Notes: a model not told the origin generated them from the letters alone. A stretch of DNA of 64,000 nt from Candidatus Peribacteraceae bacterium (GCA_028699155.1 JAQVVD010000004.1:3924-67923), one strand, 5' to 3'; shown: positions 1 to 12,457, counted from the first letter of the stretch. Numbers and translations: made by a program.

Positions 1-294
1 GTAGTCGAGGAAAACAACCATACTGCCGTCTTCGGAATAACCAACCAGATCAGGCTGGAATTTGATGCCGTGCTGGTTGATGCGGACATCGATGCCGACC
101 TGGGCGATGTGCGGCACATCCCAGAGGAGCCGCGCGAGGATGCCCCACGTCAGCGGATGCGTGAGGTTGTTGCCGGTTTGCGTGAACGCGAATGAATTGA
201 AGAACCCATCGGGAACGTATTGAATGGCGGGCTCGAGGCGGCTGGCAATCTCATCGGCAATGGTGTCGCAATGCATGGTGCTGTTGGGCGGCAT
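1..294 (-). CDS. hypothetical protein; its 3' part runs off the left edge of the window
   Basis: Uninterrupted reverse-strand frame from ATG at 294-292 down to position 1 (98 codons, MPPNSTMHCDTIADEIASRLEPAIQYVPDGFF...FQPDLVGYSEDGSMVVFLDY). It is missing from the ORF track only because it has no stop inside the window. No family recognised. Confidence 0.4.
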   Translation of the reverse strand, partial: MPPNSTMHCDTIADEIASRLEPAIQYVPDGFFNSFAFTQTGNNLTHPLTWGILARLLWDVPHIAQVGIDVRINQHGIKFQPDLVGYSEDGSMVVFLDY

Positions 295-446
295 AACTTC
301 TGATTATGGGTGCAGATCATCCTGTCTTCTTGACGAATTGTACCAGATGGAATGAGCGTACGGACATTTGAGAGATTTGTGGTTGATGCAACGTGTACAG
401 CCACCAAAGGTGCTCATCCAAAGAATCACTTGCGCTCTCCTTGTGC

Positions 447-537
447 GCTATACTCATTCCCGTGTCTACTTTCGCCACCCTGCATCCCGTTCTACAAGCA
501 CTCATCGCCACGATAGTTACATGGGGTGTTACGGCGC
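447..537 (+). repeat. left copy of a 91-bp imperfect direct repeat (zupT promoter/5' end)
   Basis: Aligns without gaps to 4776-4866. The two copies share GCTATACTC, then a divergent 12 bp around the start codon, then 70 bp (468-537 vs 4797-4866) with 3 mismatches. Confidence 0.9.
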
Positions 538-563
538 GAGAAATTTCATCGTTTTGTAAATGA
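462..563 (+). pseudogene. truncated zupT-like 5' fragment (25 ZupT-like codons, then unrelated sequence and a stop)
   Basis: The frame from GTG at 462 reads VSTFATLHPVLQALIATIVTWGVTA, compared with MTTFATLHPVLQALIATIVTWGVTA for intact ZupT at 4791. Homology ends at 538 and a TGA stop lies at 561-563. Confidence 0.6.
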
Positions 564-750
564 AAGAAGGGAAAGGTATCTCGTACAAAATTGTTCTGTA
601 GAGAAACAGTACCGTATATCTGTCTATACAGGCAAAGATCAGATAAGCAGTATACTTGACTATTTCTGGTCGCTGCGTATCCTCTGCAATCCGTGAGAAT
701 TTTTGTATCACGGCGTTTCGCTGACCTTTCAAATCATCGGAGAAAGACTC

Positions 751-2055
751 ATGAATAAGATTGTTTCCCGTACATTCGCCGATGCGTTCTTCGCCATGAA
801 GGCTGACTCCAAGAATGCGATCTTCTTTGAAGGCGGTTCCTGCCGCATTGCCCAGCGACTTATGACTGATCCAAATTACATGCCTACTCAGACAGATTTT
901 CCGGAGTACGACCCCAGTTGTTGGTCGAACATTGAGGAAGACTGTTCAAGCCTGCGGAGTGAAATCACAGAATTCCTCACAGGAGATACGCCGCCAATTC
1001 CAGGGCAAAGAGACAAACCGTCTGAGCCAACTGAGGATACACCTCTTGCGAGACTCAAAACCTACGCAAAGACGTACTGGCAGCTCACCAGCGCGGATGT
1101 CGAACTCACGCATCTTTGCAATTGCCGCTGTCGGTTCTGCTATCTCGCATCTTACGAGAATAGTGGTTTGCGACTCGAGGAATTGCAACGAATTGGATCA
1201 GCACTGAAGGATGCAGGCGTGATCTTTACGTCGCTGACGGGCGGCGAACTCTTCTTGCGACCCGATGCAATGGACATCCTGCAGTTGTTTACGGATTTGA
1301 ATTTCATGCTGGAAATTAAATCCAATGGTACGCTGCTGGATGCCGCAAAAATCGAAACGCTGGCTCGATTGCCCATCTTCGACATGCAGATTTCGATCTA
1401 CGAAACCGCCGACGGATTCTCGGCAACAACACAGCGATCGTACCCCTTCACGCAAGTGACGGAAAGTATCAAACAGCTTGCCTCATCCGAGGTGCCATTG
1501 ACGCTATCGGTCACCGTCGGGAAACACAATGTGGACCGACTGGACGAAATCCACCATGCTCTCAAGCAGATTGCTGACATCGCCATTTTTTACTCGCCAT
1601 ACATCACTCCGCGACGTTCTGGGGCAGATGACGGAATTACATTCCGCCTTTCTACAACGGAAATGCAGGAAAAATTACTCCCGTTCCTGAGAAGGACAGG
1701 TAACTTTTCCAAAATGGAGCCGTACCGCGATTGCACCGCCTGTTTGCATCCGTGCACCGCAGGCATCACGCAGGTTGCCATTGATCCCTTGGGAAATCTG
1801 TATCCTTGCTTGGATCTCCCTGTCGTCATCGGCAACGTAAGGCATGGCGATGTCGACACGCTCCTGTCTTCCGCAACCCGGGGACAGGCAATGAGCAGAT
1901 TCCGGATGGCAGACATGGCTCAATGCCTTGAATGCGATGTCCGGGAGTACTGCGACAGTTGTGTAGGCATCTCACTTTTGGAGAACGGCACTCACACTCG
2001 GCCGGCTAGACACAAGTGCGATGTCGTTCGTTTCTTTACGTTGAACGAACCCTAA
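751..2055 (+). CDS. radical SAM / SPASM-domain enzyme (candidate peptide maturase)
   Basis: CX3CX2C cluster (LCNCRCRFCY), GGE-type SAM motif (LTGGELF), and a C-terminal SPASM-like pattern (CTAGITQVAIDPLGNLYPC ... CLECDVREYCDSC ... HKCD). I moved the start from the listed TTG at 703 to ATG at 751, which is preceded by GGAGA. About 125 aa of non-rSAM sequence lie N-terminal to the cluster. Confidence 0.85.
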   Translation: MNKIVSRTFADAFFAMKADSKNAIFFEGGSCRIAQRLMTDPNYMPTQTDFPEYDPSCWSNIEEDCSSLRSEITEFLTGDTPPIPGQRDKPSEPTEDTPLARLKTYAKTYWQLTSADVELTHLCNCRCRFCYLASYENSGLRLEELQRIGSALKDAGVIFTSLTGGELFLRPDAMDILQLFTDLNFMLEIKSNGTLLDAAKIETLARLPIFDMQISIYETADGFSATTQRSYPFTQVTESIKQLASSEVPLTLSVTVGKHNVDRLDEIHHALKQIADIAIFYSPYITPRRSGADDGITFRLSTTEMQEKLLPFLRRTGNFSKMEPYRDCTACLHPCTAGITQVAIDPLGNLYPCLDLPVVIGNVRHGDVDTLLSSATRGQAMSRFRMADMAQCLECDVREYCDSCVGISLLENGTHTRPARHKCDVVRFFTLNEP

Positions 2056-2073
2056 CCTGAAAGGAGGCTTCTC

Positions 2074-2166
2074 ATGAAGAAGTCTTTCTCCAAGACCCGT
2101 GTCACCAGAAACGCGGCACGCGTCTACGAATGCAACGGCAAGCAATCCAAAAACGCTTGCCGGTAG
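2074..2166 (+). CDS. 30-aa basic two-cysteine peptide MKKSFSKTRVTRNAARVYECNGKQSKNACR, candidate RiPP precursor
   Basis: It is below the ORF-track size cutoff. AAGGAGG at 2061-2067 lies 6 nt upstream of ATG 2074. The ORF starts 19 nt after the rSAM stop and is followed by an intrinsic terminator at 2270-2303. Confidence 0.55.
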   Translation: MKKSFSKTRVTRNAARVYECNGKQSKNACR

Positions 2167-2269
2167 ATTGACGACGGCCCTGCCATTGTCATGCCGAAGT
2201 AAGCTCTGATCATATGCTGACACTTAAACTCTAGCCGGCCTTAAGTGCGGCGCATGCAAGCAGAGCAAA

Positions 2270-2303
2270 GAGCGAGACCCCTGTGGTCTCGCTCCATTTT
2301 TTT
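2270..2303 (+). terminator. rho-independent terminator after the peptide gene
   Basis: Perfect 10-bp stem GAGCGAGACC / GGTCTCGCTC with a 5-nt loop, followed by CA and seven T (2297-2303). Confidence 0.7.
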
Positions 2304-2400
2304 ACGCTACAATATCCCCGCTGTGCAACTCACTCTCTTCAGCAAACAACGGCGTGAAAGTGTTTTAGAAACACTGGCGATCTGCAAGCGTCTTGTAGGG

Positions 2401-4146
2401 ATGATTTGGGACATGGACAAGCGCCTGCTCACCGCTGCTGTACTGAGTGCTCTCGTGCCGAGCATCGTGCCATTCGTAAACGCCTATATCTACAAACTTG
2501 TCATTGATGCAATCATTGCTGGTCTCAGTGACCCTGCTGCAATCAATATGCAGCATTTGGTCATGTTGCTCACCACGCGTGTGGCAACGTACTTTGTACA
2601 AGATGCTGCATTCAGTACGCAGGGTTATGTGGAACGGCTTCTGTGGACCAAATTCCCCATTTATTTGAACAAAAAGCTCTTCGGTCATATAGCCGAGCTG
2701 GATATCGAAAACTTTGAAGATCCAGCGTTTCGCGACCGCCTAGAGAAAGTGCGTGATTCTTGGTATCGACCGCAAAATCTCATCACGGGCATGCTTTTTG
2801 CGCTCCAGAGCCTCGTGCAGTTTCTAATCGCGTTCGTCGCGATGCTCACACTGAACTGGATGCTCGTGCTGCCCATTGCGCTGATTGCCATTCCTGAATT
2901 CCTCTATCGGCTCTATGAGTCGCAATCCGCCTGGTCGATTTGGGACTGGCATAGCCACCGCAAAAAGCGATATTCCTACTTGTCGCATATGCTGCAGGAT
3001 GCGCAAAGCATTAAAGAGATGCGCATTTTCCGGCTTGCCCCGCTGTTTGTGCAGCAAACAACGGCAGTGCAGGAAGAGTTTTATGAAGATAACAAAAGTC
3101 TTTCAATGAGAGCATACCTGTTTCGGCTCATTTTCAACGGGCTCTCGACAGTGGTCTTCGTCGGTATAGAAGTCTATGTCATTGTACTCGCCTTCGCGCG
3201 AAGGGTGACAGTCGGTGACATCAGCTTTTACACGCAGATCGTGAGCAACTTCCAGAACGGTTTGGGCGGGCTGCTGCGCAACATGAATGACGTCTTCGAA
3301 GCCAGCTTGTACGTGAAGAGCTTTTTTGAGGTTATGGACGCCCCCGCAGTTATGTCATCGGCGCAGAACGCCACCGTGCTAGAACTCACTCAATCGCCAT
3401 CCATCACCTTTGATCATGTGTCATTCCGGTACCCGGGAATGGATCACGAAGTTCTTAATGACTTCAATCTCGAAATTTCTCCCAGAGAGAAAGTGGCATT
3501 CGTCGGTGAAAACGGTGCGGGGAAGACAACTATCATCAAGCTTCTCGCCCGTTTCTACGATCCGACGAGCGGTCGAATTCTCGTGAATGGCACGGATCTC
3601 CGTGAGCTGGAGCTCGACAGCTGGCACAGACAACTGGCAATCCTGTTCCAGGACTTTAACCGGTACGAAGACACCGCGAAGCAAAACATCTACTTCGGCA
3701 ATGTGCTGCGCAATATGGACATGAAGGACATCGAAAAGGCAGCAGTCGACGCGGGTGCGAATGCCATGATCGATGCCCTAGAGAAGGGATACGACCAGAT
3801 GCTTGGTCGTATGTTCGAATCCGGCGAAGAACTATCCGTTGGGCAGTGGCAGAAAATCGCTCTTGCCCGGGCATATTACCGCAATGCACCCGTCCTCATT
3901 CTCGATGAACCAACTGCAGCCATCGATGCAAAAGCCGAGGCAGAGATCTTCACACGTGTCGAAGAACTAAGCAAAGACAAAACCGTCATCTTAATTTCAC
4001 ACCGCTTCTCTACCGTGCGCATGGCGGACCGCATCATTGTCATCAACGAGGGCAAGCTCTTCGAACAAGGATCGCATGCAGAGTTGATGCGGCAGAAAGG
4101 AGTGTATGCGGAACTCTTTAGCCTGCAGGCAAAAGGGTATCAATAG
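2401..4146 (+). CDS. ABC exporter, fused permease/ATPase half-transporter (MsbA/MdlB-like)
   Basis: N-terminal six-TM-type region, Walker A GENGAGKTT, signature LSVGQWQKIALARA, Walker B VLILDEPTAAID. The listed start at 2245 would read through the terminator, so I use the first ATG after it (2401). No C39 peptidase domain is present. Confidence 0.9.
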   Translation: MIWDMDKRLLTAAVLSALVPSIVPFVNAYIYKLVIDAIIAGLSDPAAINMQHLVMLLTTRVATYFVQDAAFSTQGYVERLLWTKFPIYLNKKLFGHIAELDIENFEDPAFRDRLEKVRDSWYRPQNLITGMLFALQSLVQFLIAFVAMLTLNWMLVLPIALIAIPEFLYRLYESQSAWSIWDWHSHRKKRYSYLSHMLQDAQSIKEMRIFRLAPLFVQQTTAVQEEFYEDNKSLSMRAYLFRLIFNGLSTVVFVGIEVYVIVLAFARRVTVGDISFYTQIVSNFQNGLGGLLRNMNDVFEASLYVKSFFEVMDAPAVMSSAQNATVLELTQSPSITFDHVSFRYPGMDHEVLNDFNLEISPREKVAFVGENGAGKTTIIKLLARFYDPTSGRILVNGTDLRELELDSWHRQLAILFQDFNRYEDTAKQNIYFGNVLRNMDMKDIEKAAVDAGANAMIDALEKGYDQMLGRMFESGEELSVGQWQKIALARAYYRNAPVLILDEPTAAIDAKAEAEIFTRVEELSKDKTVILISHRFSTVRMADRIIVINEGKLFEQGSHAELMRQKGVYAELFSLQAKGYQ

Positions 4147-4173
4147 CTTTCCACATTCGAAAACGCGTCACAT

Positions 4174-4695
4174 TCAAAGCGATTTCAACATCTCGATGGT
4201 CCGATCGCAGTACCCGCATTTTTCATAGAATGTATGTGCTCCCGTGTTCGGCGCAAAACATTCAACGCGAATGTGTATGCAGTTCTTTTCTTTGAGGAAT
4301 ACCTCCATTGCCGCCATCAGTTCTTTTCCCACGTTCTGTCCGCGATGCTCAGGGCTCACGACCAGTTCCACGATCCTTCCGCTCGTTTCCGGATATACTT
4401 CTATCTGATCTTCCGGCGATGTCACCTCAACCACTCCGGCAATGCCACCAAGGATGCCACCCTCTTGCTCTGCAACAAAGATTCTGCCGTTGTCTTTGGA
4501 AATGCGTCGCAGCAAACGCTCCACATACGTGGGTACATCGAATTTCTTTCCTGATTTGTTGAGTCGTAGAGGATCAAGACCGGCGACGTAATCCTGCAGG
4601 ACACGGATAAGATCTATGAGACCTTCTTTATCTTCGTTGATATATGCCCGTATTTCCACGTGGGGATTATAGCTATGAGATTTTCGTCTGTGCAT
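4174..4695 (-). CDS. GNAT family N-acetyltransferase
   Basis: 173 aa with an acetyl-CoA binding motif of the R/Q-x-x-G-x-G/A type (HRGQNVGKELM) and GNAT-like beta-alpha topology. Confidence 0.8.
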   Translation of the reverse strand: MHRRKSHSYNPHVEIRAYINEDKEGLIDLIRVLQDYVAGLDPLRLNKSGKKFDVPTYVERLLRRISKDNGRIFVAEQEGGILGGIAGVVEVTSPEDQIEVYPETSGRIVELVVSPEHRGQNVGKELMAAMEVFLKEKNCIHIRVECFAPNTGAHTFYEKCGYCDRTIEMLKSL

Positions 4696-4775
4696 CCAGA
4701 TAAGCCAAAATGCATCTTTAATCGGAACCTAGTCGAGCCGATTAGCGATGTATAAGCTCCTCTCAATGAGAGAAT

Positions 4776-4866
4776 GCTATACTCCCACCAATGACAACTT
4801 TCGCCACCCTGCATCCTGTTCTTCAGGCACTCATCGCCACGATAGTTACATGGGGTGTTACGGCGC
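4776..4866 (+). repeat. right copy of the 91-bp imperfect direct repeat (functional zupT promoter and first 25 codons)
   Basis: See 447-537. The three mismatches in the 70-bp core are all synonymous third-position changes (CCC/CCT, CTA/CTT, CAA/CAG). Confidence 0.9.
4778..4783 (+). promoter_or_regulatory. putative -10 box TATACT, 7 nt upstream of the zupT ATG (leaderless-type)
   Basis: TGCTATACT followed by 7 nt and then ATG at 4791, with no Shine-Dalgarno. The same arrangement occurs at 449-454 with GTG at 462. Confidence 0.35.
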
Positions 4867-5600
4867 TCGGTGCCAGCATGATCTTTGGTTTTCGAACGCT
4901 GAATCAGAAGGTCCTGGATGGAATGCTCGGGTTCGCCGCCGGAGTGATGATTGCTGCGAGTTTCTGGTCGCTCTTGGCTCCTGCAATAGAAATGTCTGAG
5001 GGGGGGCCTTTGCCGAAGTGGATACCTGCAGCATTGGGATTTGCGGCGGGTGGCGTATTCCTCAGGATTCTTGATAGGCTGATTCCGCACCTGCACCTGG
5101 GTTTCCCAAAGTCAGAAGCAGAAGGGCCTCACACACACCTGCACAAAACGACACTGCTCATTTTGGCGATTACGCTCCATAACATTCCGGAAGGGCTAGC
5201 CATAGGTGTCGCATTCGGTGCTCTGGCGAATGGCGGCGATGCGATCACTCTTGCAGGCGCTGTGGCGTTGGCGCTGGGCATAGGGATTCAAAATTTCCCG
5301 GAAGGATTTGCAGTAGCAGCTCCCTTGAAGCGAGAGGGAATGTCTACCGGAAAATGTATTTGGTACGGGCAGCTTTCTGCTGTTGTGGAACCGATCGCTG
5401 CTGTAATCGGCGCAGCAGCTGTCATTGTCATGCAGCCAATCCTACCGTATGCATTGGCTTTTGCTGCGGGAGCAATGATCTTCGTGGTGGTGGAAGAGGT
5501 CGTCCCAGAGAGCCAGCGCGCGGGGCACACGGATATCGCAACTGCATCTGCAATGCTCGGATTCCTCGTGATGATGACGCTAGATGTGGCATTGGGGTAG
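4791..5600 (+). CDS. zupT: ZIP family zinc/metal transporter
   Basis: 269 aa, about 8 TM segments, with ZIP signature segments (LHNIPEGLAIG, GIGIQNFPEGFAVA). Confidence 0.9.
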   Translation: MTTFATLHPVLQALIATIVTWGVTALGASMIFGFRTLNQKVLDGMLGFAAGVMIAASFWSLLAPAIEMSEGGPLPKWIPAALGFAAGGVFLRILDRLIPHLHLGFPKSEAEGPHTHLHKTTLLILAITLHNIPEGLAIGVAFGALANGGDAITLAGAVALALGIGIQNFPEGFAVAAPLKREGMSTGKCIWYGQLSAVVEPIAAVIGAAAVIVMQPILPYALAFAAGAMIFVVVEEVVPESQRAGHTDIATASAMLGFLVMMTLDVALG

Positions 5601-5631
5601 CCCTCTGTCTCTGCTGGTCTATGATTCGCCC

Positions 5632-6867
5632 TCACTCGTACCGCAGCGCATCGATCGGCTTGAGTTTGGCGGCCTGCCACGCCGGGAGAATGCCGAAGAA
5701 CACGCCGATCCCGATGGAGAAACCGAGCGCGAGCAGAATGGAATCGAAGGAAATGATGGCGCGCGTTTCCGCGTAGTTCGTCACGATCCAGGCTCCCAGG
5801 TAACTGATGAGCACTCCGATCGCGCCTCCCAGAACGCTCAGGACCATGGACTCCACCAGGAACTGCTGGAGAATGTCACGCTTCTTGGCGCCGATCGCCT
5901 TGCGGATGCCGATCTCGCGCGTGCGCTCCATCACAGAGACAAGCATGATATTCATCACGCCTATGCCTCCGACGATCAGGGAAATCGCCGCGATTCCCCC
6001 AAGGAGGAACGTGAATGTCTGGGTCACTTCATTCAGGGTTTCGACTGTATCGGACTGGTTTGCGATGTTGAAATCCTGATTGGCAATATTTGTGATGCGG
6101 TGCTGATTGCGCACAACGACCTCGATGAGAGCGGCCGTTTGGCTCATCTGATCCTGCCTCTCCACGGAAATATTGATGGAACTGAGCTTGTCCGTGCCCT
6201 GCACGCGCTGCTGCATCGTCGTGAGCGGAATCAGCGCGACTTCATTCTGGTTCGTGAATCCCTGCTGTCCTTTCTCCTCCATGATACCGATCACCGTGAA
6301 GATGTGCTGCTCGATGCGCATGTCCCTGCCAATGGGGCTCTCCGCCCCAAAGAGCGTCTCTGCCGCCTCCTGCCCCAGTACAACGACCTTCTCCCGTTTA
6401 TCGATGTGCCCCTGCGTGATGAATGACCCGAATTCCACGTTGAAATTCTTCACAACCGGATAGTCCGGCGTGACGCCGATGACACTCACCTGCATGTTCT
6501 TGTTCCCGACAATCGCCTGCATAGTTCCGGAAAGCTCTGGCGAAATTCCTATCAAGCCGCTCACGTTCTTCTCAATCGCGCTGACATCGTCCGACGAGAG
6601 CGTACTCGTGGAACTCCCCCCTCCCGCGCGGCGGAAGAGCGACCGCACATTCGTCTGCGAGGGGCTGCCGGGGCTGACCGTCAGGAGGTTCGTCCCCAAA
6701 CTCTCGATGCGTTCCGTGATCTGCTGCTGGGACCCCTGCCCTATGCCGACCATGAGTACCACGGATGCAACGCCGATGATCACGCCCAGCATCGTCAGTC
6801 CCGCGCGCAATTTGTTGCTGCGAATCGCATCGAGGGCGCTGCGGAGATTTTCGAGGAAATACAGCAT
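5632..6867 (-). CDS. ABC transporter permease, MacB/FtsX family
   Basis: 411 aa with an N-terminal TM, a large periplasmic MacB_PCD-like region and a C-terminal FtsX-type 3-TM bundle (ERTREIGIRKAIGA). It starts 4 nt after the stop of the ATPase gene. Confidence 0.9.
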   Translation of the reverse strand: MLYFLENLRSALDAIRSNKLRAGLTMLGVIIGVASVVLMVGIGQGSQQQITERIESLGTNLLTVSPGSPSQTNVRSLFRRAGGGSSTSTLSSDDVSAIEKNVSGLIGISPELSGTMQAIVGNKNMQVSVIGVTPDYPVVKNFNVEFGSFITQGHIDKREKVVVLGQEAAETLFGAESPIGRDMRIEQHIFTVIGIMEEKGQQGFTNQNEVALIPLTTMQQRVQGTDKLSSINISVERQDQMSQTAALIEVVVRNQHRITNIANQDFNIANQSDTVETLNEVTQTFTFLLGGIAAISLIVGGIGVMNIMLVSVMERTREIGIRKAIGAKKRDILQQFLVESMVLSVLGGAIGVLISYLGAWIVTNYAETRAIISFDSILLALGFSIGIGVFFGILPAWQAAKLKPIDALRYE

Positions 6868-6870
6868 AGA

Positions 6871-7563
6871 TCACTGCGTATGAATGAGGCCGTCCAGTAT
6901 GTGAATCGTTCGTCGCGCGTGCTCTGCCACATGCGGCTCATGCGTGACCATCACAATCGTCACGCCATTCGCACTCAGCTCATCCAGGAGCCCCATGATC
7001 TCTTCTCCAGTTTTGGAATCAAGCGCGCCTGTCGGCTCGTCTGCGAGAATGATCGCCGGATTGGTCACCAGTGCTCTCGCGATCGCTATGCGCTGCTTCT
7101 GCCCTCCGGAAAGCTCGTTCGGAAGATGGTGCATGCGATCCGCCAGTCCCACCGCCTTCAGAGCACTCTCCGCGTGCTCGATAGCCTCATGCCGATGCAC
7201 GCCCTGATAGAGCAGCGGCTGCATCACCTGTCGCAGCGCATTCATGCGCGGCAGCAGGTTGAACGCCTGGAATACGAACCCGATGCGCCTGCTGCGCACT
7301 TCCGCCTGCTCTCTCTCGGAGAGGTGGCTGACTTTCCTGCCCTCCAGGGTGTACGTCCCCGTGCTGGGCGTATCGAGCAGCCCGATGATATTCATGAGCG
7401 TCGATTTTCCGGAGCCGGACGGTCCCATGATCGCGATGAACTCGCCATCCTGAATGTGCAGGGAAACTCCTTTGAGCACCGTGAGTTCCTGGGTGCCCAG
7501 GACGTACGTCTTGGTGATGTCATGCAATTGGATCATGAGTCTGATGCGGGAATGCAGGATCAC
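6871..7563 (-). CDS. ABC transporter ATP-binding protein (MacB/LolD type)
   Basis: Walker A GPSGSGKST, signature LSGGQKQRIAIARAL, Walker B ILADEPTGALD. GTG at 7563 overlaps the adaptor stop as GTGA. An alternative ATG start at 7536 gives MIQLHDITKTY. Confidence 0.9.
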   Translation of the reverse strand: MILHSRIRLMIQLHDITKTYVLGTQELTVLKGVSLHIQDGEFIAIMGPSGSGKSTLMNIIGLLDTPSTGTYTLEGRKVSHLSEREQAEVRSRRIGFVFQAFNLLPRMNALRQVMQPLLYQGVHRHEAIEHAESALKAVGLADRMHHLPNELSGGQKQRIAIARALVTNPAIILADEPTGALDSKTGEEIMGLLDELSANGVTIVMVTHEPHVAEHARRTIHILDGLIHTQ

Positions 7564-9503
7564 ATGCGCGGAGGCCCTCCGCCCATTCCGCCCATCGGCA
7601 TCATGATGCCGCCACCCCTGTTCGTACTCTCTTCTCCAGACGTCTCTGCAGCATTGAGCGATACGCTAATCGACTGAATGCGAGTGCCTTCCTCTATGCC
7701 AGAGAGAATCTCCGTGTAAGAACCATTTGTGATTCCCGTCTCCACGGGAATGCTGGCGCCGTCTTCCCTGGTCACGAACGTGCGGTTCCCCTGCGTGCGC
7801 AGCGCAAGCGCGGGAACTGCGAGCGCATTCACGGCGGATGCCGTCTGGATTTCCACCGTTGCGGTCATTCCTGAGAGGATGGTGTACTGCTCGCTCGGCG
7901 CAAGCATAATCTCCACCTCGTACGAAACGACTCCCGACGTCTGGACCGGCGTCGTATCGATCAGATTGATCGTGCCTTCGAACGCCACATTCGGCACTGC
8001 GTCGAAGGTAATGAACGCCTTCTGCCCCTCTTTCACATTAACCACATCCACCTGATCGAGCTGCACGGTCACAATGAAGTACTCCGGGTTCTCGAGCACC
8101 ACGTACTTCGTCTCGCTCGCATCCGCCAGCAGGTTATCTCCGACCTGGAAATCTACGCGCCGGACGATGCCGTCGAACGGCGCCCTCAACTCGTAGTTCT
8201 CCAGAGCGCGGCGAGCTTTCTCCAGCGCGACCTGCTTCTGGGCCAATGCATTGCTCTGCTGACTAATCTGTATGTTGACACTCGTAGTCGTCTGCTTCAG
8301 ATTCGCCTGCCCGGCACTCAGTTTGTCATTCAGATTCTCTATTGTTCTCTGCGCGGAATCGGCGGTCGTCGTTCCATTCTCCTGCTGCGACCTGAGCACT
8401 TCCAGGTTGTTTTTCGCATCCTCGAGATCCTGGAATGCAGCACTCTTGCCGGGCTGCGTCAGCATGGCCTGCTGATCGCGCAGCGTATTGAGCAACGAGA
8501 GTGCCGCCGTTCTCTTGGTGTTGATCGTTGTTTTCCATTCATTGATATCTGCGTCTGTATACTGGGTTGAGGGCACGGCTGTCCTCAGGAAATCATAGGA
8601 AATATTCGTGAGATCAATGATTTTCTGCGCCATGGTTATCGCATCTTCCAGTGCGGACTCCAGCTGTTTCGTATCATCCACATCCTGGAGCGACCCGTAC
8701 TCTTCCCGCAGGGCATCGTACGTATTCGATGCGTCGTAGTACGCGAATTCCGTCTTATTTTTCAAATCATAATCCGTGAAGTAAAACGCGATTTCGAACG
8801 CCTTGTACCGTACCGCGCCGCGCACCACGGAATCGCCGCTGAGAATTGCGATGACGCTATCGAGGATTCCATCCGCACTCGCAATGGAGCTCTCGATGCT
8901 CGCCGCCAGATCATGTTGCGCTTTCTCATATGCCGCCTCCTTTTCCTTCACCGTGGTCTCTGCTTGCGCAATCAGGTCTTCCGCCTCCATCTGCTGCGAC
9001 GGGAGATCCCCGTTGGCTTCCTCCAACTGCCGCTGCAAATCACGTACGCTGTTTTCGGCAGTCAACAGTGTCTCATCACGGCTCGCCTGCAGATCCTGCA
9101 ACTTTAAATACGCATCATTGACCGAAAGTTGCGCCTGGCGGATGTCGGCGTTCGGATCCGTCTTGTCCAGTTCCGCTATGAGATCGTCCCGCTTGACCGT
9201 ATCCCCCGTTTTCACATGGACCTTCTCCACCTTGCCCTGCACGTTGAAGCGCAACTGCTGCTCATTGGCGAGCGTCACACTGCCCAATGCCTTAATGGAA
9301 AGCGTGATGTCCCTGCGCCCCACGGTGACGATTTCCCCGACAACCTCCTGGGCACTCGTACCGCTGTTGCCGAGGAAGTGATACCCCAGTACGAGAACGA
9401 GTGGCGTGGCGAACCCCAGCAGAACGCTGCTCCATGCAAGCTGCTGCGCGAGAGCCAGCAGGCGTCTGAAGTGGAGCCGTTGCAGGAATGACAGGAGGGT
9501 CAT
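7560..9503 (-). CDS. efflux periplasmic adaptor (HlyD/MacA family) with an unusually long coiled-coil hairpin
   Basis: 647 aa with an N-terminal TM anchor, lipoyl/barrel-sandwich segments (VKTGDTVKRDDLIAEL; APFDGIVRRVDFQVGD), about 300 aa of coiled coil between them, and a Gly/Met-rich tail GGGIMMPMGGMGGGPPRM. Confidence 0.8.
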   Translation of the reverse strand: MTLLSFLQRLHFRRLLALAQQLAWSSVLLGFATPLVLVLGYHFLGNSGTSAQEVVGEIVTVGRRDITLSIKALGSVTLANEQQLRFNVQGKVEKVHVKTGDTVKRDDLIAELDKTDPNADIRQAQLSVNDAYLKLQDLQASRDETLLTAENSVRDLQRQLEEANGDLPSQQMEAEDLIAQAETTVKEKEAAYEKAQHDLAASIESSIASADGILDSVIAILSGDSVVRGAVRYKAFEIAFYFTDYDLKNKTEFAYYDASNTYDALREEYGSLQDVDDTKQLESALEDAITMAQKIIDLTNISYDFLRTAVPSTQYTDADINEWKTTINTKRTAALSLLNTLRDQQAMLTQPGKSAAFQDLEDAKNNLEVLRSQQENGTTTADSAQRTIENLNDKLSAGQANLKQTTTSVNIQISQQSNALAQKQVALEKARRALENYELRAPFDGIVRRVDFQVGDNLLADASETKYVVLENPEYFIVTVQLDQVDVVNVKEGQKAFITFDAVPNVAFEGTINLIDTTPVQTSGVVSYEVEIMLAPSEQYTILSGMTATVEIQTASAVNALAVPALALRTQGNRTFVTREDGASIPVETGITNGSYTEILSGIEEGTRIQSISVSLNAAETSGEESTNRGGGIMMPMGGMGGGPPRM

Positions 9504-10654: not shown

Positions 10655-12457
10655 ATGCATATCAGGAATATTGCCATCATCGCGCACGTCGACCACGGCA
10701 AAACGACGCTCGTGGACGCCCTGCTCACGCAGGGGGGCGCGTTTGCAACACACGAGCAGGTCGGGGAACTGATGATGGACTCCAATGAGCAGGAGAAGGA
10801 ACGCGGCATTACGATCTACGCGAAGAATACGTCCATCGTCTACCGGGACTGCAAAATCAATATCGTAGACACGCCCGGCCATGCCGATTTCGGCTCCGAA
10901 GTGGAACGAATCCTCCGGACGGTAGACTGCGTTCTGCTCCTCGTCGATGCGCAGGAAGGCCCCATGCCCCAGACGAAGTTCGTGCTGAAAAAATCTCTTG
11001 AACTGGGGCTGAAACCGATTGTTCTCATTAATAAAATTGATAAGCCTGCCGCACGATCGATCCGGGTAGTCGATGAGGTGTTCGACCTCTTCGTCACCCT
11101 GGGCGCAACAGATGAGCAGCTCAATTTCCCCTACCTCTTCAGCATCGCCAAACAGGGCATTGCGAAGCGGACACTGGAGGATGCATCGAACGATTTAAGC
11201 CCTCTGTTCGATCTAATCATGGCGCATGTGCCCGAGGCGGAGCGGAATATCGATGCACCGTTCCGCATGCAACCCAGCAGCCTTGGGTACGACAACTACC
11301 TGGGCAGATTGGCGATCGGACGCGTATTTGAAGGAATCGCCCGCGCCGGAGACACGGTCTATGTGAAACGCGCTGACGGAACATCCCGTACCGCGAAGAT
11401 CACGAAAGTATTCGTCGCACAGGGGCTCAAGCGCGTGGAGGTTACTGAGGCGCATGCGGGCGATATCGTGACGATCGCAGGTATTCCGGACATCTACGTA
11501 GGAGAGACAATGTCTACGGACCCCGATGCGCAGCCTCTTCCTGCCATCACTATCGATCCGCCGACGATCGCCATGCACTTCCTGGTCAATAATTCCCCGT
11601 TTGCCGGAAGGGAAGGGAAACTCGTGACGACTAGGCATATCCGCGCGCGGCTAGAGAAGGAGCAGGAAACGAACGTCGGGCTCAAGGTCGAGGAAGTCCC
11701 GGGCACGGATTCCTACAAGGTTTCCGGGAGGGGCGAACTGCACCTCTCCGTCCTCATAGAAGCAATGCGGCGGGAAGGTTTCGAACTGCAGGTCTCCCAG
11801 CCAGAGGTCATCTGCAGGGAGGAGAACGGCGTGAAACTAGAACCGATTGAACAAGTCATCGTGGATGTGCCCGAGACATTCACAGGCACGGTCATTGATA
11901 TGCTGGCTAAGCGCAAAGGCGAGATGGTAGACATGAAGACGCACGAAGGGAACACGCGCCTGGAGTACAAAGTCCCCACGCGCGGACTCCTGGGATTCCG
12001 CGGGGAATTCATCATCGAGACGCGCGGCGAGGGAATCCTCACGCACTCCTTCATTGCCTATGAACCGCACAAGGGCGTGCTGCCCGGCAAAACGCGGGGT
12101 TCCATGATCTCCATGGAAAACGGCGTTTCGGTCGCGTACGCGCTCTGGGGACTGCAGGAACGAGGCAGGCTCTTCATCACGCCTCAGACGAAGATTTACA
12201 GCGGCATGGTGATCGGCGAGAGCGCGAAGGGCGAAGACATGACAGTGAATCCCATGAAAGAGAAGAAGCTTACGAATGTGCGCGCTTCGGGCTCGGACGA
12301 TGCAATCGTCCTCACCCCTGTCCAGCCGCTCACGCTGGAACAGGCACTGGAATACATCGCAGAAGATGAGCTGGTGGAAGTCACGCCGACGAGCATCCGC
12401 CTGCGCAAGAAGTGCCTGAACGAACACGATCGGCGCCGGAGCCGGCGGAAAGAGTAG
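10655..12457 (+). CDS. typA: translational GTPase TypA/BipA
   Basis: 600 aa. G1 AHVDHGKTT, DTPGH, NKID, and EF-G-like domains III/V with a BipA-type C-terminus. Confidence 0.95.
   Translation: MHIRNIAIIAHVDHGKTTLVDALLTQGGAFATHEQVGELMMDSNEQEKERGITIYAKNTSIVYRDCKINIVDTPGHADFGSEVERILRTVDCVLLLVDAQEGPMPQTKFVLKKSLELGLKPIVLINKIDKPAARSIRVVDEVFDLFVTLGATDEQLNFPYLFSIAKQGIAKRTLEDASNDLSPLFDLIMAHVPEAERNIDAPFRMQPSSLGYDNYLGRLAIGRVFEGIARAGDTVYVKRADGTSRTAKITKVFVAQGLKRVEVTEAHAGDIVTIAGIPDIYVGETMSTDPDAQPLPAITIDPPTIAMHFLVNNSPFAGREGKLVTTRHIRARLEKEQETNVGLKVEEVPGTDSYKVSGRGELHLSVLIEAMRREGFELQVSQPEVICREENGVKLEPIEQVIVDVPETFTGTVIDMLAKRKGEMVDMKTHEGNTRLEYKVPTRGLLGFRGEFIIETRGEGILTHSFIAYEPHKGVLPGKTRGSMISMENGVSVAYALWGLQERGRLFITPQTKIYSGMVIGESAKGEDMTVNPMKEKKLTNVRASGSDDAIVLTPVQPLTLEQALEYIAEDELVEVTPTSIRLRKKCLNEHDRRRSRRKE

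What the first reader, a model, noticed from the sequence alone, without database searches (positions are those of the whole stretch)
751..4695. Candidate new RiPP locus: radical SAM/SPASM enzyme + 30-aa two-Cys peptide + ABC exporter + GNAT
The rSAM enzyme has the CX3CX2C cluster plus a SPASM-type auxiliary-cluster region and about 125 aa of extra N-terminal sequence that could be a peptide-recognition domain. This is the architecture of sactipeptide, ranthipeptide and related maturases. A short SD-led ORF (MKKSFSKTRVTRNAARVYECNGKQSKNACR) starts 19 nt after its stop. It is followed by a half-size ABC exporter and a convergent GNAT that could serve for N-acetylation or immunity. The peptide is very basic (9 K/R in 30 residues). 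Its C-terminal CNGKQSKNAC segment has two Cys 8 residues apart, and I do not recognise it as a known precursor family. No leader peptidase (C39 or other) is visible.
Basis: partly seen in the sequence, partly recalled or inferred. Interest (0 to 1): 0.8.

Follow-up and report, generated by a model that had tools for sequence, protein, structure and literature searches.

The report
Undescribed radical-SAM modified-peptide system of CPR bacteria
A radical SAM enzyme with a built-in peptide-recognition domain sits next to a tiny, very basic, cysteine-containing peptide gene, and this pair recurs in more than 40 genomes, mostly ultra-small CPR (Patescibacteria) bacteria, so it is a real and so far unnamed ribosomal-peptide modification system whose chemistry and role are unknown.

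Summary
Window 751-2055 encodes an RRE + radical SAM + SPASM enzyme. Window 2074-2166 encodes a Shine-Dalgarno-led 30-aa peptide, and 2323-4146 a half-size ABC exporter with no peptidase domain.

The peptide is not a chance ORF. In 42 of 48 related loci a small ORF next to the enzyme carries the invariant motif C-x2-K-x-S-K-x(2-5)-C. Of the other six, four lack the flanking sequence and two carry a frameshifted copy. Substitutions fall mostly on third codon positions.

The enzyme scores far below the cut-off of every NCBIfam radical SAM family. Its closest solved structures are the peptide maturases CteB, SuiB and SkfB. Neither the enzyme family nor the peptide family has a name or model in the libraries searched.

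The ABC exporter is the conserved third gene only in the Peribacteria clade. Most other lineages carry an uncharacterised ~150-aa P-loop protein in its place. The GNAT is not conserved anywhere.

In this window the block has 50% GC against 56% for the rest. It is bracketed by a 91-nt duplication of the start of zupT, so it looks acquired.

Most likely mechanism: the enzyme recognises the peptide's leader and makes a radical-mediated crosslink in the Cys-Lys-Ser-Lys-Cys core, and the product is exported. A thioether is favoured but not shown. This is a new family within a known kind of system.

The parts
656..683 (+). Promoter-like site upstream of the rSAM gene (TTGACT-16-TATCCT).
   Evidence: Consensus scan only, 9/12 matches, and no more sites than in shuffled sequence. 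Weak evidence.
751..2055 (+). RRE + radical SAM + SPASM peptide maturase, 434 aa. Residues ~1-77 form an RRE-like domain, 81-94 a disordered linker and ~110-330 the rSAM barrel with C123-x3-C127-x2-C130. The SPASM region carries 7 invariant Cys: 335, 353, 392, 395, 401, 404, 423.
   Evidence: Pfam. NCBIfam hits all below cut-off. Invariant residues in 23 homologs. AF2 model pLDDT 88. Foldseek top hits CteB, SuiB, SkfB and TigE over ~465 columns. N-terminal domain model pLDDT 92.7, with top hits on RRE proteins.
2059..2067 (+). Shine-Dalgarno sequence GAAAGGAGG for the peptide gene, ending 6 nt before the ATG.
   Evidence: Read from the sequence. Invariant in 7 close relatives even though the start codon varies among ATG, GTG and TTG.
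2074..2166 (+). Precursor peptide, 30 aa. Basic leader MKKSFSKTRVTRNAARVYE and core CNGKQSKNACR, with invariant C20, K23, S25 and K26 plus a downstream Cys.
   Evidence: Conserved ORF next to the rSAM gene in 42/48 loci. Alignment of 25 distinct peptides. Third-position-biased substitutions. 30 unnamed clusters in the protein database. No Pfam or NCBIfam model.
2173..2252 (+). Structured 3' UTR of the peptide gene: a hairpin right after the stop (2173-2190) and a stem-loop (2215-2252) around an invariant block TAAACTCTAGCCGGCCTTA (~2224-2243).
   Evidence: Alignment of close relatives. RNAalifold finds 9 of 36 pairs with compensatory changes. No Rfam family. Function inferred, possibly mRNA stability or processing.
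2270..2304 (+). Intrinsic terminator: 10-bp stem with 7 G-C pairs, a 5-nt loop and a T7 run. It closes the rSAM-peptide transcription unit.
   Evidence: Terminator scan. The stem is kept in 5 relatives with A-U to G-C compensatory changes.
2323..4146 (+). Half-size ABC exporter (transmembrane domain + nucleotide-binding domain, ~607 aa) with no C39 peptidase domain. The start is inferred: GTG 2323 by homology, with ATG 2401 as an alternative.
   Evidence: Pfam ABC_membrane + ABC_tran. MsbA/HlyB-like but below all NCBIfam cut-offs. Orthologs at 74-91% identity always follow the peptide gene in L002, L003, L015-L018 and L035/36.
4174..4695 (-). GNAT acetyltransferase. It is a neighbour inside the same low-GC block but not a conserved member of the system.
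   Evidence: Pfam Acetyltransf_1. No homolog in any of the 48 related loci. GC 0.483.
447..537 (+). Left copy of a 91-nt direct repeat: a decayed duplicate of the zupT promoter and first ~24 codons. It marks the left edge of the inserted block.
   Evidence: the repeat finder family D1, 89% identity. Its translation VSTFATLHPVLQALIATIVTWGVTA matches the ZupT N-terminus.
4776..4866 (+). Right copy of the 91-nt direct repeat, which is the 5' end of the intact ZIP/ZupT gene (4791-5600). It marks the right edge of the block.
   Evidence: Pfam Zip; ZupT 127 bits, below the cut-off of 252. Block 538-4775 has GC 0.499 against 0.558 for the rest of the window.

Best explanation
This is a ribosomally synthesised, post-translationally modified peptide (RiPP) system of a family that has not been described.

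Proposed mechanism:
1. The rSAM gene and the 30-aa precursor gene are transcribed together and end at a strong terminator.
2. The enzyme's N-terminal RRE domain binds the basic leader, whose conserved motif is [YF]-x-[KRP]-x-[RK]-[VI], as an added beta-strand.
3. The radical SAM core, helped by two auxiliary Fe-S clusters in the SPASM domain, abstracts a hydrogen atom in the core C-x2-K-x-S-K-x2-C. It then closes one or more intramolecular crosslinks. The most likely product is a Cys-sulfur-to-carbon thioether, as in sactipeptides and ranthipeptides.
4. In this Peribacteria clade the product is exported by the dedicated half-size ABC transporter encoded immediately downstream.

Shown here: the domain architecture, the conserved enzyme-peptide pairing, purifying selection on the peptide, and linkage of the exporter within the clade.

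Inferred: leader binding, the type of crosslink, export, and the biological role. The role could be a cationic antimicrobial or a factor for interaction with the host cell.

The GNAT is a bystander. In this genome the whole block looks horizontally acquired.
For: Architecture:
- Radical_SAM + SPASM domains.
- CX3CX2C and 7 SPASM Cys invariant in 23 homologs.
- AF2 model with pLDDT 88. Its best PDB matches, aligned over the full length, are the peptide maturases CteB (2.6e-16), SuiB, SkfB and TigE.
- The best sequence match in the PDB is SkfB at 1.4e-20.

RRE:
- The isolated N-terminal model (pLDDT 92.7) has three strands then helices.
- Its top Foldseek hits are TbiB1 with bound leader (probability 0.91), the CteB N-terminus, lasso B1 (6JX3) and ThcOx.

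Peptide:
- It lies next to the enzyme in 42/48 loci, which range from 24 to 64% GC.
- C, K, S and K are invariant.
- The pairing survives a gene-order permutation in L023, which reads peptide, P-loop, rSAM.
- Variable columns fall 3/3/13 on codon positions 1/2/3.

Transcription unit: invariant SD sequence and a conserved terminator with compensatory changes.

Exporter: orthologs at 74-91% identity follow the peptide gene in all 9 relatives of the clade whose sequence extends that far.

Thioether preference:
- Only 7 SPASM-region Cys are conserved. From memory of the CteB structure paper, this pattern fits an open site on auxiliary cluster I that binds a substrate Cys.
- Most of the nearest characterised enzymes by HMM or fold form thioethers: AlbA, PapB, StsB, SkfB and CteB.
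- The core has invariant Cys residues and no conserved aromatic residue.
Against: - No experiment supports any step, and the modification is unknown.
- All family-level HMM scores are 4- to 12-fold below their cut-offs, so chemistry cannot be transferred by homology.
- SuiB, which makes a Lys-Trp C-C bond, matches the fold as well as CteB does. MftC, a decarboxylase and C-C crosslinker, is the top HMM hit.
- The RRE assignment rests on weak Foldseek statistics (E 0.05, TM 0.46-0.53). No sequence-level match to PqqD or an RRE was found.
- No leader peptidase is present.
- Most family members have no exporter at all. They carry a cytosolic-looking P-loop protein instead, which fits an intracellular role as well as a secreted one.
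- In L035/L036 the rSAM gene is truncated by an AbiJ-like gene, yet the peptide core and the ABC gene remain intact. The peptide-plus-exporter pair may therefore persist without modification, or that locus may simply be decaying.
Confidence: 0.8

Rival explanations
1. The system is the same (RRE-rSAM-SPASM enzyme acting on this peptide) but the chemistry is not a thioether. Candidates are a C-C or C-N crosslink involving the invariant Lys residues, epimerisation, or oxidation of the invariant Ser or Cys. The two Cys residues might instead form a disulfide or bind the cluster.
For: K23, S25 and K26 are as invariant as the Cys. SuiB, a Lys-Trp crosslinker, and the epimerase YydG/EpeE are among the structural and sequence matches. 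MftC is the top NCBIfam hit. No family cut-off is reached, so the chemistry is open.
Against: The core has no conserved aromatic residue to serve as a streptide- or cyclophane-type partner, since His is replaced by Gln or Lys. Most of the closest characterised enzymes form thioethers. The number of Cys in the core varies from 2 to 3 along with the number of loops, as expected if each Cys makes one bridge.
Confidence: 0.35
2. The modified peptide is not a secreted natural product. It acts inside the cell, for example as a cofactor precursor, a metal-binding peptide or a regulator working with the P-loop partner. The ABC transporter in this clade would then be a secondary addition or serve another purpose.
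For: 28 loci pair the enzyme and peptide with a ~150-aa P-loop protein and have no exporter or protease. That trio stays together even when its order is permuted. The system is spread across many reduced-genome CPR lineages. The top HMM hit is a cofactor maturase, MftC.
Against: In the window's clade the P-loop gene is absent and a dedicated ABC exporter always follows the peptide gene. Known peptide-derived cofactor pathways need further enzymes, and none is conserved here. The pair is patchy and mobile: genomic contexts differ even among closely related copies, and one copy lies on a plasmid-like contig. That is typical of accessory traits, not core cofactors.
Confidence: 0.25
3. The GNAT is a functional member of the locus, acting in N-acetylation of the peptide or in self-immunity.
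For: It lies inside the same low-GC block bounded by the 91-nt repeats, and its own GC of 0.483 resembles the block's. It is convergent with the ABC gene and 28 nt from it.
Against: No GNAT occurs in any of the 48 related loci, including nine with the orthologous ABC gene. The gene after the ABC differs in each subgroup. Its best NCBIfam matches are generic RimI- and AAC(6')-like and all fall below their cut-offs.
Confidence: 0.08
4. The small ORF is a chance or non-substrate ORF, and the rSAM enzyme acts on something else.
For: Short ORFs are abundant by chance. No experimental link exists.
Against: The amino-acid motif is conserved across loci of 24-64% GC, the SD sequence is conserved, substitutions are biased to third positions, and the motif occurs only once in the window. 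The enzyme also carries an RRE-like domain.
Confidence: 0.02

Closest known systems
Sactipeptide maturases with an N-terminal RRE (CteB, AlbA, SkfB, StsB)
   Same: They share the three-domain layout of RRE + radical SAM + SPASM. CteB is the best structural match and SkfB the best PDB sequence match. The precursor is a small Cys-containing peptide encoded next to the enzyme. An ABC exporter is present in the locus.
   Different: HMM scores are far below the family cut-offs: AlbA 68 vs 850, StsB 65 vs 625, SkfB 55 vs 300. The precursor is unrelated, very basic (9 K/R in 30 residues) and has only 2-3 Cys inside a K-x-S-K motif. No protease is present. The enzyme gene precedes the precursor gene. 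The family is centred on CPR bacteria.
Ranthipeptide systems (PapB / SCIFF family)
   Same: A rSAM/SPASM enzyme that makes Cys thioethers within short Cys-x(n)-acceptor motifs near the C-terminus of a small precursor. antiSMASH-type rules would probably label this locus as such (my expectation, not tested).
   Different: PapB scores 65 bits against a cut-off of 340. The precursor has no C-x3-D/N repeats and no six-Cys pattern.
Streptide system (SuiB/StrB with SuiA/StrA)
   Same: SuiB matches the fold as well as CteB does, including the RRE. The precursor is short and Lys-containing and is encoded beside an exporter gene.
   Different: No Trp or other aromatic partner is conserved in the core. 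There is no sequence-family membership.
Mycofactocin maturase MftC with MftA
   Same: It is the top NCBIfam hit, at 76 bits over residues 117-403. The precursor is a small peptide.
   Different: The cut-off is 265 bits. The peptide does not end in the Val-Tyr that MftC modifies. No MftB, D, E or F genes are present. Here the RRE is fused to the enzyme, whereas in mycofactocin it is a separate protein, MftB (from general knowledge).

Membership tests
Radical SAM / SPASM RiPP maturases (RRE-dependent) | CX3CX2C radical SAM cluster motif | tested here: met
   C123, C127 and C130 are invariant in 23 homologs. Pfam Radical_SAM scores 53 bits against a cut-off of 29.5.
Radical SAM / SPASM RiPP maturases (RRE-dependent) | C-terminal SPASM domain with the 7-Cys auxiliary-cluster motif | tested here: met
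   Pfam SPASM scores 28 bits against a cut-off of 21.5. C335, G348, C353, C392, C395, C401, C404 and C423 are invariant. The spacing is CX2CX5CX2C, where the canonical form is ...CX3C.
Radical SAM / SPASM RiPP maturases (RRE-dependent) | RiPP recognition element (PqqD-like winged helix: three strands plus three helices) that binds the leader | tested here: inconclusive
   The predicted fold has strands 4-8, 12-17 and 23-27 and helices 29-39 and 55-76, at pLDDT 92.7. The top Foldseek hits are RRE proteins (TbiB1 probability 0.91, CteB N-terminus, lasso B1, ThcOx), but E is 0.05 or worse and TM is 0.46-0.53. There is no sequence-level hit. Only two long helices are predicted. Binding was not tested.
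Radical SAM / SPASM RiPP maturases (RRE-dependent) | Conserved precursor peptide gene co-located with the enzyme gene | tested here: met
   42/48 loci carry it, with an invariant core motif and purifying selection.
Sactipeptides | Cys sulfur to alpha-carbon thioether bridges in the mature peptide | not testable with these tools
   This needs MS/MS or NMR of the modified peptide.
Sactipeptides | Enzyme belongs to a curated sactisynthase family (AlbA, StsB, SkfB, ...) | tested here: not met
   AlbA 68 vs 850, StsB 65 vs 625, SkfB 55 vs 300 bits.
Ranthipeptides (PapB/SCIFF) | PapB-family enzyme and a Cys-rich precursor with C-x(n)-Asp/Asn/Thr acceptor repeats | tested here: not met
   PapB scores 65 bits against 340. 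The core is C-x2-K-x-S-K-x2-C with no acidic acceptor.
Mycofactocin (MftC/MftA) | MftC equivalog score, precursor ending in Val-Tyr, and mftB/D/E/F neighbours | tested here: not met
   76 bits against 265. The peptide ends in ...NACR. The neighbours are an ABC exporter and a GNAT.
Anaerobic sulfatase maturases (anSME) | No RRE, acts on a sulfatase C/S-x-P/A-x-R motif, and a sulfatase gene in the genome neighbourhood | tested here: not met
   anSME structures rank below the RRE-bearing maturases CteB, SuiB, SkfB and TigE and align only ~370 columns. anSME is not among the top 25 NCBIfam hits. No sulfatase gene is adjacent.
Peptidase-containing ABC transporters (PCAT, C39) | N-terminal C39 papain-like peptidase domain and a double-Gly leader | tested here: not met
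   Pfam finds only ABC_membrane and ABC_tran. Alignments to the bacteriocin_ABC and NHLM models start after their peptidase regions. The peptides have no conserved GG/GA site before the core.

The most novel reading that the evidence does not exclude
The enzyme-peptide pair is a CPR-wide accessory module whose usual third component is a novel ~150-aa P-loop NTPase, not an exporter or a protease. On this reading the rSAM-modified cationic peptide carries a new type of crosslink involving the invariant Lys/Ser residues. It would act in the episymbiont-host relationship, or inside the cell together with the NTPase, and not as a conventional bacteriocin. That would make it both a new RiPP class by chemistry and the first characterised RiPP of the Candidate Phyla Radiation.
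Probability: 0.25. Interest if true: 0.85.

Novelty: new variant of a known kind. Interest (0 to 1): 0.62.

Why it matters
CPR/Patescibacteria make up a large part of bacterial diversity. They have tiny genomes and live attached to host cells, and almost nothing is known about the molecules they make. In the paper library I searched, I found no paper describing a radical SAM RiPP from them.

This system gives a compact, directly testable two-gene unit with 25 distinct natural precursor variants already aligned here. Co-expression could reveal a new peptide crosslink. The very basic product could be an antimicrobial or a host-interaction factor.

The family is small and sharply separated from other rSAM-SPASM proteins. 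About 20 clusters at 50% identity score above 338 bits, and scores then fall quickly to about 226 bits and below. A dedicated HMM pair for the enzyme and the peptide would annotate it cleanly.

Tried and rejected
- **Known-family assignment.** I searched Pfam, NCBIfam and PADLOC for the enzyme, the peptide (short and long forms), the N-terminal domain and the P-loop partner. Apart from the generic Radical_SAM and SPASM domains, nothing passed a curated cut-off. The pVip (viperin) hits cover the generic rSAM core only.
- **Sequence-level RRE detection.** Pfam at E<=10 and a PDB profile search of the N-terminal alignment gave no meaningful hit. Only the predicted fold supports an RRE.
- **Known RNA family in the conserved 3' UTR.** No Rfam match at E<=1.
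- **Second peptide copy, rSAM paralog or P-loop partner elsewhere in the 64-kb window.** None found.
- **Link between the P-loop partner and the STAND/TPR NTPase next to the pair in L012.** hhalign matched only the Walker A stretch, E 0.24. Rejected as evidence of homology.
- **Histidine kinase as a conserved neighbour.** The blast cluster c3 appears in 5 loci, but it is generic domain-level similarity at varying positions. I did not pursue it.
- **Literature.** Five searches combining CPR taxon names with radical SAM, RiPP, SPASM, ranthipeptide or sactipeptide found no description of this system. The CPR graspetide paper (PMC8939145) and the conflict-systems paper (PMC7159879) describe different systems.
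I repeated it with a 44-aa member first.

Full report
**1. What is in the window**

- ORF 751-2055 (+) encodes a 434-aa protein. Its ATG at 751 coincides with the N-termini of its homologs. The TTG at 703 listed by the ORF finder is an unsupported extension.
- The stop is TAA at 2053-2055. GAAAGGAGG lies at 2059-2067, and ATG 2074 opens the 30-codon ORF MKKSFSKTRVTRNAARVYECNGKQSKNACR (2074-2166).
- A strong intrinsic terminator follows at 2270-2294. It has 10 pairs, 7 of them G-C, and a T7 tail.
- Next is a 607-633-aa half-size ABC exporter ending at 4146. Orthologs align from residue 27 of the GTG-2245 ORF, so the start is probably GTG 2323.
- A convergent GNAT lies at 4174-4695.

**2. The enzyme**

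- Pfam finds Radical_SAM (residues 118-269) and SPASM (335-396), both above threshold.
- Against NCBIfam it matches 60 radical SAM families, none near its cut-off. The best are peptide or cofactor-peptide maturases: MftC 76 vs 265, ScmE 74 vs 400, AlbA 68 vs 850, WgkB 68 vs 650, PapB 65 vs 340, StsB 65 vs 625.
- A profile of 23 homologs finds SkfB as the best solved relative, at 1.4e-20.
- Invariant residues include C123/C127/C130 and seven SPASM-region cysteines: C335, C353, C392, C395, C401, C404 and C423. An eighth cysteine, near residue 328, is not conserved.
- The AlphaFold model is confident (pLDDT 88, pTM 0.88). Its best PDB matches, aligned over ~465 columns and so including the N-terminal domain, are CteB (sactipeptide thioether synthase), SuiB (streptide), SkfB and TigE. 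Enzymes without an RRE, such as anSME, PqqE, MoaA and viperin, rank lower and align only the core.
- Modelled alone, residues 1-77 give three strands followed by helices at pLDDT 92.7. The top structural matches are leader-binding RRE proteins: TbiB1 in complex with its leader (probability 0.91), the CteB N-terminus, lasso-peptide B1 and ThcOx.
- These matches are consistent in kind but statistically weak (E 0.05 or worse, TM ~0.5), and no sequence-level RRE match exists. I therefore call the RRE probable, not proven.

**3. The family and the peptide**

- A protein search finds about 57 full-length homologs at 34-79% identity. All cover the N-terminal domain. Where they are named, they come from Patescibacteria/CPR lineages.
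- In the 50%-identity representative library, roughly 20 clusters score above 338 bits. Scores then fall quickly to about 226 bits and below for generic rSAM-SPASM proteins that match only positions ~90-428. The family is small and sharply bounded.
- I fetched 13 genome loci and 35 metagenome loci. They come from Peribacteria/Peregrinibacteria, Saccharibacteria, Paceibacterota, other Patescibacteria MAGs, and two MAGs labelled Bacteroidota and Rhodospirillales.
- In 41 of them a small ORF with its own SD sequence follows the enzyme gene directly and carries C-x2-K-x-S-K-x(2-5)-C. With L023, described below, that makes 42 of 48 loci with the motif at the expected place.
- Of the other six loci, four end before the site and two (L006/L022, the same MAG) have a 1-nt insertion that frameshifts an otherwise typical copy.
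- The strict motif occurs once in the whole 64-kb window in six frames. In the 48 loci together it gives 44 hits in 666,608 translated residues: one per locus at the expected place plus one further hit each in L017 and L018. I inspected the L017 one and it is a chance antisense hit.
- In L023 the gene order is permuted to peptide, P-loop gene, rSAM, and the three genes stay together.
- An alignment of 25 distinct peptides shows invariant C, K, S and K.
  - The leader is basic, with a recurring [YF]-x-[KRP]-x-[RK]-[VI] segment.
  - The commonest long core is C-[SAG]-S-K-[HQ]-S-K-A-G-A-G-C-K-x-x-[KR]-N-x-[PS]-C-R.
  - The window's form, C-N-G-K-Q-S-K-N-A-C-R, looks like the long form with the middle Cys loop deleted.
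- Among close relatives the SD sequence is invariant while the start codon varies among ATG, GTG and TTG. Variable columns fall 3/3/13 on codon positions 1/2/3. Window versus L016 differs at 9 synonymous and 1 non-synonymous codons. The ORF is therefore translated and under purifying selection.
- The peptide family exists in the large protein database as 30 clusters. None has a name beyond 'hypothetical protein' and none has a Pfam domain. NCBIfam and Pfam have no model for it.

**4. Partners**

I clustered the neighbouring ORFs across all loci.
- In 28 loci the peptide gene is followed by a ~150-aa P-loop protein with Walker A G-x-x-D-x-G-K-[TS] and Walker B h-h-h-D-E-x-E.
- That protein matches no Pfam, NCBIfam, PADLOC or PDB family beyond the P-loop itself.
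- In the window's clade (L002, L003, L015-L018, L035/36) the P-loop gene is absent. An orthologous ABC exporter at 74-91% identity takes its place. The closest relative, L001/L014, ends before that gene.
- The window has no P-loop homolog anywhere.
- The ABC protein has no C39 peptidase domain, and no protease is conserved in any locus.
- The GNAT has no counterpart in any related locus, and the gene after the ABC differs in every subgroup. The GNAT should be dropped from the model.

**5. Transcript anatomy**

- The terminator after the peptide gene is conserved in five relatives with compensatory A-U to G-C changes.
- Upstream of it lie a short hairpin directly after the stop codon and a stem-loop built around an invariant block, TAAACTCTAGCCGGCCTTA.
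- No Rfam family matches.
- This structured 3' UTR probably stabilises or processes the precursor mRNA. That is an inference.

**6. Genomic setting**

- The block 538-4775 has 49.9% GC against 55.8% for the rest of the window.
- It is bracketed by a 91-nt direct repeat, 447-537 and 4776-4866, at 89% identity. The right copy is the start of an intact ZIP/ZupT gene. The left copy is a decayed duplicate of the same start, without its ATG.
- Relatives with 79-93% identical genes have entirely different flanking genes:
  - rRNA/tRNA methyltransferase genes in L001;
  - a large membrane protein in L002;
  - LigA and an AbiJ-like gene in L035.
- A 30%-identical enzyme-peptide pair sits on a 63.5%-GC contig of a Rhodospirillales MAG, next to a Rep3 replication initiator, a DDE transposase and a STAND/TPR NTPase.
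- The module is therefore mobile and accessory.

**7. How it most likely works**

- Shown: the architecture, the conserved pairing, selection on the peptide, the shared transcription unit, and clade-specific linkage to an exporter.
- Inferred: the RRE binds the basic leader; the rSAM active site, with the SPASM clusters, abstracts a hydrogen atom in the C-x2-K-x-S-K-x2-C core and closes a crosslink; the ABC protein exports the product.
- I favour a Cys thioether at about 45-50%, for three reasons.
  - Most of the nearest characterised enzymes form thioethers.
  - Only seven SPASM-region cysteines are conserved. From my recollection of the CteB structure paper, this fits an open site on auxiliary cluster I for a substrate cysteine.
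  - The core has no conserved aromatic residue.
- The equally invariant Lys-x-Ser-Lys leaves other chemistries open.
- The role is open too. It could be a cationic antimicrobial, a host-interaction factor, or, given the P-loop partner and the lack of an exporter in most lineages, something intracellular.

**8. Comparison with known systems and novelty**

- It works like an RRE-dependent rSAM/SPASM RiPP pathway, as in sactipeptides, ranthipeptides and streptide.
- It is not a member of any curated family. Every family-level test I could run failed, and the precursor is unrelated to known ones.
- I found no description of it in five literature searches. The two CPR- or SPASM-related papers I opened concern other systems.
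- I rate it a new variant of a known kind.

**9. Verdict**

Interest is 0.62. This is a clean, testable, undescribed RiPP family from a poorly explored part of the bacterial tree, but the general logic is familiar and the chemistry is still unknown.

Noticed in passing
window 447-537 and 4776-4866: A 91-nt direct repeat (89% identity) duplicates the promoter and first ~24 codons of the ZIP/ZupT gene. It brackets the 4.3-kb rSAM-peptide-ABC-GNAT block, which has 49.9% GC against 55.8% elsewhere. It looks like the scar of an insertion at the 5' end of zupT, but the block contains no integrase or transposase.
   Followed up: partly
window 2173-2304 (also L002, L003, L016, L035): The peptide gene has a structured, conserved 3' UTR: a hairpin after the stop, a stem-loop around an invariant block TAAACTCTAGCCGGCCTTA, and a terminator with compensatory changes. 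GGCCTT[AG]AG also follows the peptide gene in the 56%-identity clade (L005/L020). No Rfam family matches.
   Followed up: partly
L005-L011, L020-L048 (e.g. L008 7480-7923): A ~150-aa P-loop NTPase with no family assignment follows the peptide gene in 28 loci. It stays with the pair in L023, where the order is permuted to peptide (from 3326), P-loop gene (3510-3962), rSAM (3989-5278). It is absent from the window.
   Followed up: partly
L035 3042-4570 and L036: In a close relative (ABC 91% identical) the rSAM gene is reduced to residues 276-434. An AbiJ_NTD4 + DUF7014 (abortive-infection-like) gene sits where the 5' part should be. The peptide's leader has diverged (RIARKPLSPYG against RVTRNAARVYE) while the core CNGKHSKNACR and the ABC gene are intact.
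   Followed up: partly
L012 (Rhodospirillales MAG contig, 63.5% GC), 269-8633: A distant enzyme-peptide pair (30% identity; peptide MKTYTKGTVVVVKGVTTCSSKQSKAGAGCKG) lies outside CPR, on a contig with a Rep3 initiator and a DDE transposase. An 833-aa STAND/TPR NTPase follows it. This suggests plasmid-borne horizontal transfer.
   Followed up: partly
L006 7281-7407 and L022: The peptide gene carries a 1-nt insertion (AAA-G-CAT) that splits a typical long-form precursor across two frames. It is either a sequencing error or a pseudogene.
   Followed up: no
window 5632-9503 (-): A MacB-type tripartite efflux set lies just beyond zupT: an FtsX/MacB_PCD permease (5632-6867), an ABC ATPase (6871-7563) and a 647-aa HlyD-like adaptor (7560-9503). 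A BipA/TypA GTPase follows at 10655-12457. This set is not conserved next to the system in other loci.
   Followed up: partly
window 304-429 (-): A 41-aa ORF with three Cys (MILWMSTFGGCTRCINHKSLKCPYAHSIWYNSSRRQDDLHP) lies between the left-flank gene and the left repeat copy. I did not examine it and it may be a chance ORF.
   Followed up: no
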